Origin: a virus
Lineage: Duplodnaviria; Caudoviricetes
IMG/VR virus record: IMGVR_UViG_3300035101_000015
Location: 81,843-145,842 of that record
Direction: 5' to 3' (one strand)
Length of the DNA: 64,000 nucleotides
Position numbers and translations under genes: made by a program. Below, piece after piece: positions 5,054-8,455 of this stretch (position 1 is its first letter; every line of letters begins with the position of its first letter). The notes under the pieces were generated by a model, which had not been told where the DNA came from, did not search any database, and was given only the letters and a program-made list of their open reading frames with translations.

Positions 5054-5059
5054 GATAAG
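5054..5059 (+). promoter_or_regulatory. GATAAG putative -10-like element for the Y RNA/rsr transcript
   Basis: Ends 6 nt before the predicted 5' end (5066) of the first Y RNA. Confidence 0.5.
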
Positions 5060-5065
5060 AACTTC

Positions 5066-5210
5066 GCAGCAGACCGGAGACTCTGGGTTATCGGTTAGAG
5101 CGTTGGGCTCTGCTTCGGCGAGTCCAGAGGTCGCGGGTTCAAGTCCAGCCTCCTTGCCTCGGCGGGGAGTAGCTCAGTAACAACACCCAGTTTCGTCACT
5201 TGTCTGCTGC
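5066..5210 (+). ncRNA. Y RNA containing a tRNA-like domain circularly permuted at the D-loop (YrlA-related)
   Basis: Terminal stem gcagcagac/gtctgctgc with GACCGGA...GGGTTATC and ACTTGTC. Inside, in order: 3' D half ggttagagc, anticodon-like stem, aggtc, T arm gcggg-ttcaagt-ccagc, closed acceptor hairpin ctccttgcc-tc-ggcggggag, 5' D half tagctcagt. Immediately upstream of Ro60. Confidence 0.85.
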
Positions 5211-5247
5211 TCTGCCTTCACCAGGCTGACTACTTGGTGGAGGCGCT

Positions 5248-5314
5248 GAGCGACCGGATGGTGTGGGTTATCGCCAACACAGACATCCACATCAATGAAC
5301 TTGTCGCTCTTTTT
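5248..5314 (+). ncRNA. Minimal Y RNA-like RNA
   Basis: gagcgac/gtcgctc terminal stem, GACCGGATGGTGTGGGTTATC, inner stem ggtgtgg/ccacatc, ACTTGTC, then a U-tract. Confidence 0.75.
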
Positions 5315-5317
5315 ACC

Positions 5318-5344
5318 ACTTGCTCCGTACGGAGCCGAAAGGAG
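5318..5344 (+). promoter_or_regulatory. Ro-binding-like hairpin abutting/overlapping the rsr Shine-Dalgarno (putative autoregulatory site)
   Basis: ACTTGCTCC-gtac-GGAGCCGAA runs straight into AGGAG (5340-5344), 6 nt before GTG at 5351. Confidence 0.6.
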
Positions 5345-5350
5345 TTCATC

Positions 5351-7081
5351 GTGGACTACGCATCGCAGGTCAGCAAGAAGGTCACCCCGCAGTCTGAGCA
5401 GGCGCGGGAGGACCAGGTGAAGAACTCTGCTGGTGGATTCGTCTTCCAGCTCACCTGCTGGGACCGGCTAGACCGGTTCTTGGTCCTCGGTAACGAGGGT
5501 GGCACTTACTACGCGGGAGAGCGTGAGCTCACCAAGCAGAACGCTGCCTGCATCGAGCAGTGCCTCAACGAGGATGGACCGCGCGCCGTTGCTCGCATCG
5601 CCGAGCTCAGTGTGACGAACCGCATCCCCAAGAACGACACGGCCATCTTCGCCCTGGCACTCGCCAGTGCGCACAAGGACCAGGCCGTCCGTAAGGCAGC
5701 GTTCGCTGCTGTACCTGCAGTGTGCCGCATCGGCACGCACCTCTTCGACTACGCCAGCGCCTGTGACCACCTGCGTGGATGGGGTGAGGCGATGAAGCGC
5801 GCCATCGCCAACTGGTACCTCAGCAAGAAGCCTGAGGATGTCATGTACCAGGTAGCGAAGTACCGGCAGCGCAATGGCTGGTCCCACAAGGACATGCTCC
5901 GCCTGAGTCACGCCGTTCCTACCAACGAACTCGCTCCCATCTTCCGGTGGGTGGTCGACTCCGAACTCGGGGAGCGCGTGGTCCAGGGAAGTGAGAAGCG
6001 TGGACGCAAACAGCGTCAGTACGCCGGCGTCGGTGAGCTCCCCGAGTACCTCGAGGCGTTCAATGAGCTGCAGTCATGCAACGAGAAGCGGGTCATCGAG
6101 CTCGTGCAGAAGTACGGGTTCACCCGCGAGATGCTGCCCACGCAGCACCTCAACTCGCTGGACGTCTGGGCGGCTCTACTGCCGAAGATGCCCATCACCG
6201 CCACGCTTCGGAACCTGGGCAAGATGACCAACATCGGACTGCTCACTCCTCTCAGCGAGGGTGCGAAGGTCGTGACGGCTCGCCTGACTGACCCGAACAT
6301 TCTCAAGCGTGGGCGTGTGCATCCCATCGCGCTGCTCAACGCCCAGGCTATCTACGCCATGGGCCACGGCATCCGCCGGATGCAGAACCGTCGGGCGGAC
6401 GAGAAGGAGCCCCTCACCTGGACTCCCAACCGCGCCATCACCGACGCGCTCGACGAGGCGTTCTACCTGGCCTTCCAGGGCATCGAGCCCACTGGGAAGA
6501 ACATCCTACTGGCGCTGGACGTGTCCGGCTCCATGACGGGTGGCAGCATCGCTGGAGTGCCTGGGCTCAGCCCACGCAAGGCTTCGGCAGCGATGGCCAT
6601 GGTCACCGCCAAGAGCGAGAAGAACTGGCACATCGTGGCCTTCAGCTCGGGTGGCGGTCGCCGTGCTGGCGGATGGCAGTCCGGCAACTCCAGCCGTGGC
6701 ATGTGGGGACACAACTCCGACGGCATCTGCCCCATCGACATCACACCGAAGATGCGGCTCGACAAGGTCCTCAAGGTCCTCGAGGGCTGGCCCTTCGGTG
6801 GGACTGATGTGGCCCTGCCGGTGCTGTACGCCTTGCGGGAGAAGATGCAGGTGGACGCCTTCGTGACGTACACGGACAACGAGACCTGGGCAGGGGACAT
6901 CCACCCTCACCAGGCGCTCGAGATGTACCGTCGGGAGACCGGAATCTCCGCCAAGCTGGTGGCCGTCGGCATGACGGCAACCGACTACTCGGTGGCGGAC
7001 CCGAATGACCCTGCCTCGATGAATGTGGTCGGATTCGACTCCGCTGCACCCTCCATCATGGCGGACTTCATCCGGGGTTGA
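5351..7081 (+). CDS. rsr: Ro60/TROVE-domain RNA-binding protein (Rsr orthologue)
   Basis: N-terminal VKNSAGGFVF...LDRFLVLGNEGGTYY, KYRQRNGWSHKDMLRLSH, MPITATLRNLGKM, RVHPI; VWA MIDAS LDVSGSM, GGTDVALP, YTDNETWAG, C-terminal VVGFD. SD plus GTG at 5351. Confidence 0.95.
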   Translation: MDYASQVSKKVTPQSEQAREDQVKNSAGGFVFQLTCWDRLDRFLVLGNEGGTYYAGERELTKQNAACIEQCLNEDGPRAVARIAELSVTNRIPKNDTAIFALALASAHKDQAVRKAAFAAVPAVCRIGTHLFDYASACDHLRGWGEAMKRAIANWYLSKKPEDVMYQVAKYRQRNGWSHKDMLRLSHAVPTNELAPIFRWVVDSELGERVVQGSEKRGRKQRQYAGVGELPEYLEAFNELQSCNEKRVIELVQKYGFTREMLPTQHLNSLDVWAALLPKMPITATLRNLGKMTNIGLLTPLSEGAKVVTARLTDPNILKRGRVHPIALLNAQAIYAMGHGIRRMQNRRADEKEPLTWTPNRAITDALDEAFYLAFQGIEPTGKNILLALDVSGSMTGGSIAGVPGLSPRKASAAMAMVTAKSEKNWHIVAFSSGGGRRAGGWQSGNSSRGMWGHNSDGICPIDITPKMRLDKVLKVLEGWPFGGTDVALPVLYALREKMQVDAFVTYTDNETWAGDIHPHQALEMYRRETGISAKLVAVGMTATDYSVADPNDPASMNVVGFDSAAPSIMADFIRG

Positions 7082-7105
7082 AATCCTGACGATGAACGGG
7101 TACAA

Positions 7106-7135
7106 GAAGGGTGGCGGATTCGTCCGCCACCCTTC
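7106..7135 (+). other. Perfect 13-bp hairpin with UUCG loop directly 5' of a Y RNA (processing/stability element or terminator)
   Basis: gaagggtggcgga-ttcg-tccgccacccttc. Confidence 0.6.
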
Positions 7136-7202
7136 GGCGACCGGATGTAGTGGGTTCTCCGAATTTTGGTTTCGACAAGCCCCACTGCAACTACTTGTCG
7201 CC
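7136..7202 (+). ncRNA. Minimal Y RNA-like RNA
   Basis: ggcgac/gtcgcc terminal stem; GACCGGATGTAGTGGG pairs with CCCACTGCA; ACTTGTC on the 3' strand. Confidence 0.78.
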
Positions 7203-7207
7203 ATCTA

Positions 7208-7462: not shown

Positions 7463-7466
7463 TCAT

Positions 7467-7597
7467 GGAACGTGTAGCTCAGCCAGGTAGAGCAGCGGTA
7501 TCCAGATTCCCTATGCAGAACTTGTCCGAGAGGACCGACGTATAGGGTTATCATTCAGCACCGCTGGTCACGGGTTCAAATCCCGTCGCGTTCCCCA
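7467..7597 (+). ncRNA. tRNA-Y RNA chimera 3, with encoded CCA (residual loop AUUCAGC, possible anticodon UCA)
   Basis: Acceptor ggaacgtg/cgcgttcc plus CCA, anticodon stem gcggt/accgc, T arm acggg-ttcaaat-cccgt; insert 7500-7552 has ACTTGTCC-gaga-GGACCGA...GGGTTATC. Confidence 0.82.
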
Positions 7598-7658
7598 CCT
7601 CCAACAGCACTTGCTCTCACGGGATACTCTCGTGCTGAGCCGAAGTTGAAGGGTTATC
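7598..7658 (+). ncRNA. Free-standing permuted Ro-binding module
   Basis: caac..ACTTGCTC (7609-7616), internal hairpin, GAGCCGAAgttg (from 7637), GGGTTATC; compensatory CTC/GAG in place of TCC/GGA. Confidence 0.65.
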
Positions 7659-7684
7659 TACCGAAGCAAACAAGGTGATTAGTA

Positions 7685-7733
7685 GGCGGGATGTCGTATG
7701 GTCGACCCAGCGACATCCCGCCGGCCTTGTTTT
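7685..7733. terminator. Hairpin terminator between the convergent RNA array and pth2
   Basis: ggcgggatgtcg...cgacatcccgcc followed by a T-rich tract. Confidence 0.65.
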
Positions 7734-7744
7734 CTAGCCCTGTA

Positions 7745-8071
7745 TCAGGCAGCGCGCAGGGCCAGCGGCAATGAGCTCACCAATCTCTTCGCTCCTCGTC
7801 CGAGTAGTGCGATAGCAGTTGGCTCATCGTTCACATCAGGCTCCCTGAAGATGGAGACGGGCAGCCCGGCGCAGGTGGCCTTGTAGGCCAGCTCGACCAG
7901 CTCCTCCTTGGAAGGCACCTGCAGCAGCACGACGTTGTTGCTGTTTTCATACCAGTCTACGTCTTCCCTGGGATGCTCCACTCCAAAGAGCTTGGCAGCA
8001 TGGACCATCTGAGCACCCTGGAGGCCCGGCGGCTCCAAGTCGTTTCGGACGATGACATACAGCTTGTTCAT
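7745..8071 (-). CDS. Pth2-family peptidyl-tRNA hydrolase-like protein
   Basis: MNKLYVIVRNDLEPPGLQGAQMVHAA, VVLL, FREPD..EPTAIAL, LPL; fits the PTH2 pattern; AGGAG SD before ATG at 8071. Confidence 0.8.
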   Translation of the reverse strand: MNKLYVIVRNDLEPPGLQGAQMVHAAKLFGVEHPREDVDWYENSNNVVLLQVPSKEELVELAYKATCAGLPVSIFREPDVNDEPTAIALLGRGAKRLVSSLPLALRAA

Positions 8072-8176
8072 GACTACACTCCTACTGAGAGCGCCGGGCA
8101 TGGTGCCTGGGGAGAGCCCAGGACGCGACTTGGGTTGTTTGGTTCGTCATGAAACACCCGGCGCTCGCACTTCTAG

Positions 8177-8251
8177 TGGGCGAGGTGCGGCTCGAACGCA
8201 CGACCTCTGGATTCTTTAGGCCCAGTGCTCTGCCAACTGAGCTACTCGCCC
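8177..8251 (-). tRNA. Atypical tRNA with 9-nt anticodon loop CCUAAAGAA (central AAA, Phe-like; identity uncertain); no encoded CCA
   Basis: GGGCGAG TA GCTC AGTTGGCA GAGC A CTGGG CCTAAAGAA TCCAG AGGTC GTGCG TTCGAGC CGCAC CTCGCCC A. Confidence 0.8.
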
Positions 8252-8254
8252 CTG

Positions 8255-8329
8255 CGCGGGTGGATGGGGTCGAACCACCGACTTCCGGGGGCTTTAGTCC
8301 CGGCCCTCTACCAACTGAGGTACACCCGC
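8255..8329 (-). tRNA. Atypical tRNA with 9-nt anticodon loop ACUAAAGCC (central AAA; identity uncertain); no encoded CCA
   Basis: GCGGGTG TA CCTC AGTTGGTA GAGG G CCGGG ACTAAAGCC CCCGG AAGTC GGTGG TTCGACC CCATC CACCCGC G. Confidence 0.8.
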
Positions 8330-8427
8330 AGAACGCACGAAAGCCCACGGCGCCGGCGGCGCGGTGGGCTCTCTGGATACCCGCCGAAGCGGTCTGACTG
8401 TCAAAGTCGTGGGTTCACGGCACACCC

Positions 8428-8455
8428 AGGGTAACAATCCCGTACGGGATTGCAA
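8428..8455 (-). promoter_or_regulatory. Putative sigma70-like promoter (TTGCAA-16 nt-TACCCT) overlapped by an 18-bp palindrome
   Basis: Perfect palindrome caatcccgtacgggattg (8435-8452) upstream of the tRNA-tRNA-pth2 unit. Confidence 0.45.

What the first reader, a model, noticed from the sequence alone, without database searches (positions are those of the whole stretch)
5054..8455. Candidate new system: phage Ro60 locus with eight Ro-binding modules grafted onto tRNA scaffolds in several topologies, plus Pth2 and odd tRNAs
Seen: a clear Ro60/Rsr gene (5351-7081) is flanked by eight copies of one bipartite helix, GACCG[GA]A..GGGTTATC paired with ACTTGTC (variant GAGCCGAA/ACTTGCTC). Copies lie at 5066-5210, 5248-5309, 5318-5339, 7136-7202, ~7240-7280, ~7372-7417, ~7509-7552 and 7598-7658; some lack or alter the GGGTTATC part. 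Converging on the array are a Pth2-like hydrolase and two tRNAs with expanded loops. Established: Ro60 binds Y RNAs; bacterial YrlA RNAs mimic tRNA and tether Rsr to RNA-processing partners such as PNPase; rsr often sits with RtcB-type RNA repair genes. Inference: the phage makes a family of Ro60 RNPs that display different tRNA faces. These could decoy anticodon nucleases, capture tRNA-handling enzymes, or support translation quality control during infection.
Basis: partly seen in the sequence, partly recalled or inferred. Interest (0 to 1): 0.96.

Follow-up and report, generated by a model that had tools for sequence, protein, structure and literature searches.

The report
Phage Ro60 with tRNA-shaped Y RNAs
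A large uncultured phage carries a Ro60 RNA-binding protein gene surrounded by eight copies of the Ro60 docking helix, three of them built into otherwise normal tRNA-shaped RNAs, and the same apparently undescribed tRNA form turns up next to Ro60 genes in many other phages and bacteria.

Summary
All eight modules are at the stated coordinates and carry the Y-RNA bulged-C helix (stem-C-CGR paired with CUU-G-stem). A model built from the reversed copies hits only those five copies in the 64-kb window.

Ro60 genes with neighbouring Y RNAs are already known in phages (Chen 2014; Thermus phage phiLo 2025), so this is not a new system. The RNA forms appear to be new:
- **Un-permuted tRNA-shaped RNAs.** Three tandem RNAs (7209-7597) have normal ends and the Ro60 helix, closed by a loop, on the anticodon arm. 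They are the un-permuted counterpart of YrlA.
- **D-loop-permuted Y RNA.** One Y RNA (5066-5210) has its tRNA part permuted at the D loop.
- **Copy on the Ro60 ribosome-binding site.** One copy overlaps the Ro60 gene's own Shine-Dalgarno sequence and is a likely autoregulatory operator.

The un-permuted form is widespread. Strong matches occur in 14 of 80 IMG/VR Ro60 loci and 31 of 80 bacterial Ro60 loci, and the acceptor stem covaries at all seven pairs.

The link to Pth2 and the two odd tRNAs is weak. Expression, Ro60 binding and function were not tested. I class it as a new variant of a known kind, of moderately high interest. Other first-stage notes of this scan on this same genome describe the same features.

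The parts
2310..3497 (+). AAA_5 (MoxR-like) ATPase gene; conserved upstream neighbour, context only
   Evidence: Pfam AAA_5 scores 20.6 bits, E 5e-4, below the 22-bit cut-off. A 395-aa gene sits in the same position in the contigs of the 80% relative P0003.
3503..4933 (+). DUF2201 VWA / putative metallopeptidase gene; context only. The start is inferred from the 476-aa product in P0003 contigs.
   Evidence: Pfam DUF2201 E 3.5e-20 and DUF2201_N E 1e-16; synteny.
5066..5210 (+). M1: Y RNA whose tRNA-like domain is permuted at the D loop. The acceptor stem is closed by a CUCG loop and the anticodon arm is capped by UUCG.
   Evidence: The fold gives a 9-bp Ro stem, -68 kcal/mol, z -4.1. After in-silico re-permutation ARAGORN calls a full cloverleaf. 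Weak match to the Y-RNA-related family RF01656, 25.8 bits.
5248..5309 (+). M2: plain stem-loop Y RNA
   Evidence: Fold z -3.6. The orthologue in L010 (1354-1422) has a wholly different but complementary lower stem.
5305..5350 (+). M3: reversed Ro60-binding helix in the Ro60 mRNA leader. The Shine-Dalgarno AAGGAG lies in the 3' strand of its upper stem; candidate autoregulatory operator.
   Evidence: R1 gives 38 bits, E 1e-8. The fold pairs CUCUUUUU with AAAGGAG. The same arrangement is found in L010, L013, L096, L115 and Sorangium loci.
5351..7081 (+). Ro60 / Rsr gene (576 aa)
   Evidence: Pfam TROVE plus vWA_Ro60. 354 phage records hold homologues at 45% identity or less. Closest relatives are 80% identical metagenomic proteins, then Polyangiaceae at about 52%.
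7108..7135 (+). G+C-rich hairpin after the Ro60 stop codon, with no U tract; possible 3' stabiliser or processing site
   Evidence: Read from the sequence.
7136..7202 (+). M4: plain stem-loop Y RNA (GGGTTCTC variant)
   Evidence: Fold z -3.8. RF01656 20.6 bits.
7209..7330 (+). t5: tRNA-shaped RNA with a 7-bp acceptor stem, D and T arms, and an intact anticodon arm (loop CUCACAA). The reversed Ro module (7239-7284) forms an extra arm between the D and anticodon arms.
   Evidence: R2 92.6 bits, R1 39.6 bits, Rfam tRNA 25.7 bits. ARAGORN -i calls it.
7336..7462 (+). t6: tRNA-shaped RNA with the reversed Ro module (7369-7417) on the anticodon arm and no 7-nt anticodon loop
   Evidence: R2 107.6 bits, R1 50.8 bits. 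ARAGORN -i calls it.
7468..7597 (+). t7: tRNA-shaped RNA with the reversed Ro module (7507-7552) replacing the anticodon loop; 3' CCA is encoded
   Evidence: Rfam tRNA 49 bits with a 58-nt insert. R2 99.7 bits. The fold gives a cloverleaf, z -3.3. The orthologue in L010 has a compensatory anticodon stem.
7596..7658 (+). M8: free-standing reversed module. Its lower stem is extended by a hairpin, and its upper stem starts right after the CCA of t7.
   Evidence: R1 46.2 bits. Orthologue in L010 at 3410-3459.
7683..7740 (+). Terminator: 13-bp hairpin followed by a U-rich tail, at the end of the RNA array
   Evidence: Fold of 7205-7740; sequence. The simple terminator scan did not list it.
7745..8101 (-). 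Pth2-type peptidyl-tRNA hydrolase homologue; a neighbour whose link to the array is not shown
   Evidence: Pfam PTH2 31.5 bits. PDB 2zv3 E 8e-6. 218 phage records hold homologues.
8176..8251 (-). tRNA with a 9-nt anticodon loop CCUAAAGAA (ARAGORN: Phe-AAA); function unexplained
8254..8329 (-). tRNA with a 9-nt anticodon loop ACUAAAGCC (ARAGORN: Phe-AAA); function unexplained

Best explanation
This is a phage Ro60 ribonucleoprotein cassette: one Ro60 gene, seven small non-coding RNAs and one element in the Ro60 mRNA. All eight carry the Y-RNA docking helix for Ro60, a stem with a bulged C followed by G-U and A-U pairs (5' stem-C-CGR, 3' CUU-G-stem), usually followed by GGGUUAUC.

**The RNAs come in four architectures**
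- Plain hairpin Y RNAs: M2 and M4.
- A tRNA-like Y RNA permuted at the D loop: M1.
- Three tandem tRNA-shaped RNAs with normal 5'/3' ends, a 7-bp acceptor stem and D and T arms. The docking helix sits on the anticodon side and is closed by a small loop: t5, t6, t7.
- A free reversed module: M8.

**Inferred mechanism**
- The array is transcribed with the Ro60 gene and ends at the terminator near 7735.
- The tRNA-shaped units are cut out by RNase P and the tRNA 3'-end machinery, and end in CCA, which is encoded in t7.
- Ro60 binds the docking helix, leaving the tRNA elbow and acceptor end free. The RNAs would then act as tethers or gates that couple Ro60 to tRNA-binding proteins, as Y RNA couples Ro60 to PNPase.
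- The eighth copy (M3) holds the Ro60 Shine-Dalgarno sequence in its upper stem, so surplus Ro60 should repress its own translation.

**Shown here:** the sequences, the conserved and covarying secondary structures, and their distribution.

**Inferred, not tested:** expression, processing, Ro60 binding, partners and autoregulation.
For: **Identity of the helix**
- It matches the published Y-RNA motif GNCGAAN0-1G and the bulged-helix description (PMC4201824; PMC12135203).
- M1 and M4 give weak matches to the nematode Y-RNA-like family RF01656.

**Reversed module**
- Ten copies from three phage lineages align with 87% of cells paired, against 75% in shuffles (0/500) and 34-52% when partners are slid. 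Nine of 14 pairs show double changes.
- Model R1 finds only the five true copies in the 64-kb window. Its other hits in 90 phage Ro60 loci lie on the Ro60 strand with one weak exception, mostly within about 1 kb of the gene.

**tRNA-shaped units**
- Eighteen units from 12 phage contigs give an RNAalifold cloverleaf with 15 of 20 pairs compensatory. All seven acceptor pairs covary, and U8, A14, A21 and the GUUCRA T loop are conserved.
- Forty-five bacterial units are 97.5% paired, against 79% in shuffles, and 7 of 7 acceptor pairs show double changes (this alignment is fitted to the model).
- t7 and many relatives pass the Rfam tRNA threshold with a 50-60-nt insert.
- Folding 7205-7740 as one RNA recovers the acceptor stem and arms of t5, the whole t7 cloverleaf with its own module, the M8 module and the terminator. 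It gives no inter-unit pairing.

**M1**
- Re-permuted at the D loop, it becomes a cloverleaf that ARAGORN calls.

**Operator M3**
- R1 scores 38 bits in the window and 36.5 bits in L010.
- The Shine-Dalgarno sequence pairs inside the upper stem in the window (CUCUUUUU/AAAGGAG), in Sorangium (CCGUCCUC/GAGGUGG) and in L096 (CCCCUCU/AGAGGGG).
- A script found the arrangement in 14 of 38 bacterial loci where a start could be called.

**Precedent**
- Phage phiLo Ro60 binds two phage-encoded Y-like RNAs and forms a complex with host PNPase (PMC12135203).
- M. smegmatis YrlA is cut by RNase P and gains CCA in vivo (PMC4201824).
Against: - There are no expression, end-mapping or binding data for any of these RNAs. 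All structures are predictions.
- On their own, t5 and t6 do not fold into the cloverleaf as the minimum-energy structure (z -0.6 and -0.8). t5 falls below the Rfam tRNA threshold (25.7 against 29 bits) and t6 gives no Rfam tRNA hit.
- Whether Ro60 can bind a docking helix whose lower end is closed by a 3-6-nt loop, rather than open, is unknown.
- Between the window and L010 the operator's lower stem is identical, so within this clade the evidence for it is conservation rather than covariation.
- The start-codon calls behind the 14/38 count came from my own heuristic script.
- No partner for the tRNA-like domain is known, even for YrlA.
Confidence: 0.75

Rival explanations
1. The tandem units are really ordinary YrlA-type permuted Y RNAs. 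The 5' docking strand and T arm of one unit would pair with the D arm and 3' docking strand of the next, so the apparent acceptor stems would be irrelevant.
For: - The Rfam YrlA model gives sub-threshold hits across the unit junctions: 7429-7501 at 32.6 bits and 7298-7361 at 22.7 bits.
- M6 and M7 share the same lower stem (GUCC/GGAC), so cross-pairing is possible.
- YrlA is proposed to have arisen from dimeric tRNA transcripts (10.1101/312249).
Against: - Those scores are far below the YrlA threshold of 69 bits.
- The junction sequences cannot form an acceptor-like stem; only about 3 bp are possible (read).
- The 7-bp acceptor stems covary in 18 phage and 45 bacterial units.
- Each module's upper stem fits its own partner far better than its neighbour's: 8 bp against about 3 complementary bases (GGG/CCC) for M7 (and my reading).
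- Single, isolated units exist in L010, L011, L026 and L015.
- The global fold shows no inter-unit pairing.
Confidence: 0.07
2. t5-t7 are real decoding tRNA genes interrupted by an intron-like insert. The insert would be removed, perhaps with Ro60 as a helper, to give functional tRNAs for a phage that otherwise encodes almost none.
For:
- The 146-kb record has only two other tRNAs.
- t5 keeps an anticodon arm with a 7-nt loop, CUCACAA.
Against: - I saw no group I intron or bulge-helix-bulge signature.
- Removing the insert does not leave a consistent 7-nt anticodon loop in t6 or t7.
- The insert, that is the docking helix and GGUUAYC, is among the most conserved parts of the RNA across 60+ units. 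That fits a function in the mature RNA.
Confidence: 0.05
3. The RNAs are real and bind Ro60, but their main role is counter-defence. They would act as tRNA-shaped decoys or sponges for host tRNA-targeting nucleases or tRNA-sensing defence systems, rather than as tethers for RNA-decay enzymes. This rival concerns function only and accepts the same RNAs and Ro60 binding as the main explanation.
For: - Phage context.
- The tRNA bodies lack a cleavable anticodon loop.
- The phage also encodes a Swiss-army-knife type RNA end-healing and sealing protein at 38490-42200 and Pth2. Both fit a conflict over tRNA or RNA damage.
Against: - The same RNA class sits next to chromosomal Ro60 genes in many bacteria, which points to a general Ro60 function rather than a phage-specific one.
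- No nuclease partner has been identified.
Confidence: 0.12

Closest known systems
YrlA (Rfam RF02553), the tRNA-like Y RNA of Salmonella, Mycobacterium and many bacteria and phages (Chen et al. 2014, PMC4201824; Wang et al. 2018, 10.1101/312249)
   Same: It is encoded beside Ro60. It has the same docking helix joined to the anticodon-stem side of a tRNA-like body with D arm, T arm and acceptor stem. Several Y RNAs per locus are usual.
   Different: YrlA is circularly permuted: its ends lie in the docking helix and its acceptor stem is closed by a loop. t5-t7 have their ends at the acceptor stem (CCA is encoded in t7) and a loop-closed docking helix. M1 is permuted at the D loop instead. No window RNA reaches the YrlA model threshold (best 32.6 against 69 bits).
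RNase P-cleaved, CCA-tailed two-piece form of M. smegmatis YrlA (PMC4201824)
   Same: It is a Ro60-bound tRNA-like RNA with an open acceptor end carrying CCA.
   Different: That form arises by cutting a permuted precursor into two pieces. Here a single continuous RNA would have this shape from the start.
Yrl1 and Yrl2 of Thermus phage phiLo, with phage Ro60 and host PNPase (PMC12135203)
   Same: A phage-encoded Ro60 has Y-like RNAs carrying the CGAA motif encoded next to the gene. Binding was shown experimentally in that system.
   Different: The phiLo RNAs are forward stem-bulge-stem hairpins, like M2 and M4. No tRNA-embedded or reversed modules are described.
D. radiodurans Yrn1 (Rfam RF01053)
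   Same: It is a Y RNA in which T and D-like arms are arranged in the tRNA order relative to the docking helix. The first Y RNA of relative L010 (1177-1315) has this layout.
   Different: Yrn1 has only partial tRNA features and its ends are in the docking helix.
Circularly permuted tRNA genes of some algae and an archaeon (discussed in 10.1101/312249), and permuted two-piece tmRNA (from my own knowledge)
   Same: One tRNA-type fold is encoded with different positions of the ends.
   Different: Those are processed back into canonical functional RNAs. Nothing here suggests re-ligation.

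Membership tests
Ro60 / TROVE protein | TROVE domain followed by a Ro60-type vWA domain, above the Pfam cut-offs | tested here: met
   TROVE 151 bits (cut-off 23) and vWA_Ro60 186 bits (cut-off 27.7).
Y RNA (Ro60-binding RNA, general definition) | Encoded beside a Ro60 gene on the same strand | tested here: met
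   All eight modules lie within 300 nt upstream or 580 nt downstream of the Ro60 gene, on the + strand.
Y RNA (Ro60-binding RNA, general definition) | Conserved bulged helix with the 5'-strand motif GNCGAAN0-1G (PMC4201824) | tested here: met
   GCCGAA is exact in M3 and M8. The others vary at single positions, in some cases with a paired change: ACCGAA in M5 and M6, ACCGGA in M1, M2 and M4, ACCGAC in M7. The lower stem covaries.
Y RNA (Ro60-binding RNA, general definition) | Physically bound by Ro60 | not testable with these tools
   Needs pull-down or gel-shift experiments.
YrlA (RF02553) | Score at or above the Rfam gathering threshold of 69 bits | tested here: not met
   The best hit is 32.6 bits, and it spans a junction between two units. 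The best in relatives is 40-42 bits.
YrlA (RF02553) | Permuted topology: ends in the docking helix, T arm 5' of D arm, acceptor stem closed by a loop | tested here: not met
   t5-t7 have the D arm 5' of the T arm and open 7-bp acceptor stems. M1 has a closed acceptor stem but is opened at the D loop.
tRNA (RF00005) | Score at or above the Rfam gathering threshold of 29 bits | tested here: inconclusive
   t7 scores 49 bits (met), t5 scores 25.7 bits (not met), and t6 gives no tRNA hit. Relatives of the class score 42-59 bits.
tRNA (RF00005) | 7-nt anticodon loop presenting an anticodon | tested here: not met
   In t6 and t7 the loop is replaced by the docking helix. Only t5 keeps a 7-nt loop, CUCACAA, on a separate arm.
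Nematode stem-bulge RNA (RF01656, Y RNA homologues) | Score at or above the threshold of 38 bits | tested here: not met
   M1 scores 25.8 and M4 20.6 bits. Some plain Y hairpins in bacterial loci do pass, at 41-43 bits.
PTH2 peptidyl-tRNA hydrolase (PF01981) | Pfam score above the cut-off | tested here: met
   31.5 bits against a 23-bit cut-off, covering 82 of 115 profile positions. PDB PTH2 chains match at E 8e-6 to 2e-3.

The most novel reading that the evidence does not exclude
The un-permuted tRNA-Y RNA chimeras would be a distinct, widespread and so far undescribed class of Ro60 partner RNA, with three properties:
- They are matured like tRNAs and carry a free CCA end, so they might be aminoacylated.
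- They dock Ro60 where the anticodon should be, coupling Ro60 to the tRNA or translation machinery in a way closed-acceptor YrlA cannot.
- They represent the surviving ancestral form from which YrlA arose by tandem duplication and permutation.

In addition, Ro60 would autoregulate its own translation through a Y-RNA-like operator that contains its Shine-Dalgarno sequence.
Probability: 0.35. Interest if true: 0.8.

Novelty: new variant of a known kind. Interest (0 to 1): 0.62.

Why it matters
What the tRNA-like domain of bacterial Y RNAs binds, and why Ro60 is tied to tRNA mimicry, are open questions.

- **A natural comparison set.** This class has the same body as YrlA but an open, CCA-ending acceptor stem. 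It can be put straight into RNase P, CCA-adding, aminoacylation, EF-Tu and pull-down assays.
- **Origin of YrlA.** A tandem array in which the halves of neighbouring units resemble YrlA is concrete material for the published idea that YrlA arose from dimeric tRNA transcripts.
- **Annotation.** These 120-140-nt RNAs are currently either missed or called tRNAs with inserts. Gene callers can also run the Ro60 ORF through upstream Y RNAs, as the 614-aa model here does.
- **Control of Ro60.** The Shine-Dalgarno-containing docking helix suggests a simple feedback loop that sets Ro60 levels against Y RNA levels.

Tried and rejected
- **DNA search against cultured phages:** megablast found no match.
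- **First IMG/VR scan with the single Ro60 protein:** no relatives found. The scan with a protein alignment worked.
- **Contigs of the 80% relative P0003:** gene maps came back without DNA. I therefore could not check whether the odd tRNAs are conserved there.
- **My first two regex scans for the bipartite helix:** far too permissive, at about 129 chance hits per shuffled window. I replaced them with a stricter scan and covariance models.
- **Alignment of the six plain forward hairpins:** MAFFT plus RNAalifold misaligned the 3' strands and gave nothing useful. The complementary lower stems were read directly instead.
- **Promoter and terminator scan:** it found no credible promoter upstream of M1 and did not list the clear terminator at 7683-7740.
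- **Papers not held:** the 2020 and 2018 Wolin reviews and the 2016 RNA-repair survey could not be read. The supplement of Chen 2014 is not held either, so I cannot exclude that un-permuted examples are shown there.
- **Chance, or a mobile repeat:** rejected because of the covariation and the strand and position bias.
- **Codon supply as the reason for the two tRNA(AAA) genes:** rejected because TTT is rare, 10 against 117 TTC in eight genes.

Full report
**Where the window lies.** The window is the last 64 kb of a 145,842-base IMG/VR virus record. CheckV estimates it is 78% complete and its GC content is 61%.

**The protein genes.**
- The ORF 5351(GTG)-7081 (+) is a clear Ro60/Rsr gene: Pfam TROVE E 6e-44 and vWA_Ro60 E 6e-55. 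An AAGGAG site lies 7 nt before the start.
- Upstream are a weak AAA_5 (MoxR-like) gene and a DUF2201 VWA gene.
- Downstream on the minus strand are a Pth2-type hydrolase homologue (7745-8101; 31.5 bits against a 23-bit cut-off) and two tRNAs.
- Ro60 homologues occur in 354 cultured phage records, all at 45% identity or less.
- The closest relatives are two metagenomic proteins at 80% and one at 56%, followed by Sorangium and Polyangiaceae proteins at about 52%.

**Checking the observation.** All eight modules are at the stated places.
- The docking helix is the classic Y-RNA one: a lower stem ending in C, a bulged C, then G-U and A-U pairs. It reads 5' ...GAC-C-GRA / 3' ...CUG-UUCA, with GAGC/GCUC in M3 and M8. 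GGGUUAUC usually follows 5-9 nt after the 5' strand.
- This fits the published motif GNCGAAN0-1G (PMC4201824) and the 'CGAA motif' used to find the Y-like RNAs of Thermus phage phiLo (PMC12135203).
- M1, M2 and M4 have the usual order with open ends. They fold with z-scores of -3.6 to -4.1.
- M3 and M5-M8 have the reversed order: ACUUG, lower stem, a small loop, lower stem, CCGR.
- Six of the 21 ACTTGYC sites and six of the nine GGGTTMTC sites in the window fall in this 2.6-kb stretch.
- I built a covariance model (R1) from ten reversed modules of three phage lineages. In the whole window it hits only the five true copies, at 38-51 bits.
- On that alignment 87% of cells pair, against 75% in shuffles (0/500) and 34-52% when partners are slid. 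Nine of 14 pairs show double changes.

**The three tandem units at 7209-7597 are tRNA-shaped RNAs with normal topology.**
- Each has a 7-bp acceptor stem, U8, a GCUC/GAGC D arm, a GUUCRA T loop and a 5-nt variable loop.
- t7 scores 49 bits on the Rfam tRNA model with a 58-nt insert in place of the anticodon loop. It is followed by an encoded CCA.
- In t6 and t7 the reversed docking helix extends the anticodon stem.
- In t5 the helix is an extra arm between the D arm and a complete anticodon arm (loop CUCACAA), which is followed by the normal AGGUC variable loop.

**Could the array instead be tandem YrlA-type permuted RNAs?** The Rfam YrlA model hints at this reading, with sub-threshold hits across the junctions at 32.6 and 22.7 bits against a 69-bit threshold. 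I reject it for five reasons:
- The junction sequences cannot form an acceptor-like stem.
- Each module's upper stem fits its own partner, 8 bp in M7 against about 3 complementary bases across units (and my reading).
- Single isolated units occur in relatives.
- Folding the whole 7205-7740 stretch as one RNA recovers the arms of t5, the complete t7 cloverleaf with its own module, M8 and the terminator. It shows no inter-unit pairing.
- The acceptor stems covary (next section).

**Relatives.**
- The 80% relative L010 keeps a plain Y hairpin whose lower stem is entirely different yet complementary: GGGAACGGC/GCCGUUCCC against GAGCGAC/GUCGCUC.
- L010 also keeps the operator-like module at the ribosome-binding site, with loop UUCG instead of GUAC.
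- Its orthologue of t7 has a compensatory anticodon stem, CCGGG/CCCGG against GCGGU/ACCGC. It also has an orthologue of M8.
- The 56% relative L011 has three plain Y hairpins, one tRNA-shaped unit with a reversed module, and a full cloverleaf stacked on a docking helix.
- Eighteen units from 12 phage contigs align well. RNAalifold gives acceptor, D, T and docking stems, and 15 of 20 pairs show compensatory changes.

**Distribution of the whole-unit model (R2).** Ordinary tRNAs score at most about 53 bits against R2. Full-length hits of at least 70 bits and at least 115 nt occur in:
- 14 of 80 IMG/VR Ro60 loci;
- 31 of 80 bacterial Ro60 loci. These include Sorangium, Chondromyces, Minicystis and other Polyangiaceae, Verrucomicrobiota, Armatimonadota and Chloroflexota.

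The units often form tandem arrays, nine in L096. Forty-five bacterial units aligned to the model are 97.5% paired, against 79% in shuffles, and all seven acceptor pairs show double changes. That alignment is fitted to the model, which flatters it. In Rfam these units score as tRNAs with inserts, at 42-59 bits, and none reaches the YrlA threshold. The eight cultured-phage loci I sampled carry forward and YrlA-type Y RNAs upstream of Ro60 instead.

**M1.** Inside its 9-bp docking stem the order is:
1. the 3' half of the D arm (GGUUAGAGC);
2. a long anticodon arm capped by UUCG;
3. the variable loop AGGUC;
4. the T arm;
5. an acceptor hairpin closed by CUCG;
6. the 5' half of the D arm (UAGCUCAGU).

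Rejoining the D loop and opening the acceptor loop in silico gives a sequence that ARAGORN calls as a cloverleaf. The corresponding RNA in L010 instead has the docking helix in the acceptor position, as in D. radiodurans Yrn1. The attachment point therefore changes quickly between close relatives.

**M3.**
- The reversed module at 5305-5350 has its 5' docking strand running into the Shine-Dalgarno sequence (GAGCCGAAAGGAG). The predicted upper stem pairs CUCUUUUU with AAAGGAG.
- The same design is present in L010, in viral L013, in Minicystis (L115), in a Polyangiaceae MAG (L096, CCCCUCU/AGAGGGG) and in many Sorangium genomes. In Sorangium CCG-GAGG overlaps the Shine-Dalgarno sequence and CCGUCCUC pairs with GAGGUGG.
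- My script found it in 14 of 38 bacterial loci where a start could be called.
- I read this as a translational operator through which free Ro60 represses its own synthesis. This is inference. I found no paper on it.

**How it most likely works.**
- The Ro60 gene and its RNAs are probably transcribed together. A 130-nt intergenic block upstream of M1 is conserved in L010, and a 13-bp terminator hairpin plus U tract ends the array at about 7735.
- The tRNA-shaped units are probably released by RNase P and the tRNA 3' machinery. Ro60 would then dock on the helix that replaces the anticodon.
- By analogy with Y RNA tethering Ro60 to PNPase (PMC4201824; PMC12135203), the exposed tRNA elbow and acceptor end would recruit tRNA-binding proteins.
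- The partner is unknown, as it is for YrlA (10.1101/312249).
- A counter-defence role as tRNA-shaped decoys is possible. It is not favoured, because the class is equally common beside chromosomal Ro60 genes.

**Comparison with what is known.**
- YrlA has the same parts, but its ends lie in the docking helix and its acceptor stem is closed.
- The RNAs here are its un-permuted counterpart.
- The published proposal that YrlA arose from dimeric tRNA transcripts is matched here by a tandem array whose junctions already resemble YrlA.
- My searches found no description of the un-permuted form, the D-loop-permuted form or the operator. Two reviews and the Chen 2014 supplement could not be read.

**Pth2 and the odd tRNAs.**
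- Pth2 homologues are common in tRNA-rich mycobacteriophages (206 of 218 records) and lie far from Ro60 there.
- The two minus-strand tRNAs have different bodies but share CUAAAG inside 9-nt loops. They are the only conventional tRNAs in the record.
- TTT is rare, 10 against 117 TTC in eight genes, so codon supply does not explain them. They remain unexplained.

**Verdict.** 'New system' overstates it: this is a new variant of the Ro60/Y RNA kind. It does lead to an apparently overlooked and widespread RNA class and to a candidate autoregulatory element.

Noticed in passing
window 38490-42200 (-): A 1236-aa ORF carries 2H-SAK phosphoesterase, LigD 3'-phosphoesterase, ATP-dependent ligase and inorganic pyrophosphatase domains (Pfam). 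It looks like a Swiss-army-knife type nucleic-acid end-healing and sealing protein, 31 kb from the Ro60 gene.
   Followed up: partly
window 8176-8251 and 8254-8329 (-): These two tRNAs have different acceptor stems and bodies but share CUAAAG inside 9-nt anticodon loops flanked by C/A and A/C. They are the only conventional tRNAs in the 146-kb record. TTT is a rare codon here (10 against 117 TTC), so their role is unexplained.
   Followed up: partly
L115 (Minicystis rosea), L140 (Chondromyces apiculatus), L098 and other Sorangium loci: Chromosomal Ro60 genes of Polyangiaceae sit inside very dense tRNA gene arrays, up to 30 tRNA genes within 6.6 kb around Ro60. Docking-helix-bearing tRNA-like units are interspersed among the normal tRNAs.
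   Followed up: partly
window 4934-5065; L010 1046-1176: The intergenic block upstream of the first Y RNA is highly conserved between the window and the 80% relative. It holds a GC hairpin (4940-4968), two TTGTATTT repeats and GGGGGTGAYGCAGTGATAAGA just before the RNA start. It is probably the promoter region, but the sigma-70 scan found nothing.
   Followed up: no
window 5234-5350: The gene call on record for this Ro60 (P0001, 614 aa) starts at TTG 5234 and so reads through M2 and M3 as protein. tblastn matches to 'residues 7-39' in Verrucomicrobiota loci may reflect conserved Y-RNA sequence rather than protein, which is an annotation pitfall.
   Followed up: no
L096 4385-6304: A Polyangiaceae MAG has about nine consecutive tRNA-shaped units with reversed docking helices downstream of Ro60, and no ordinary tRNA called by ARAGORN in the locus.
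   Followed up: partly
window 2310-4933: A MoxR-like AAA_5 ATPase gene and a DUF2201 VWA/metallopeptidase gene lie directly upstream of the Ro60 cassette. The same pair is conserved in the contigs of the 80% relative. A possible functional link to the vWA domain of Ro60 was not examined.
   Followed up: no
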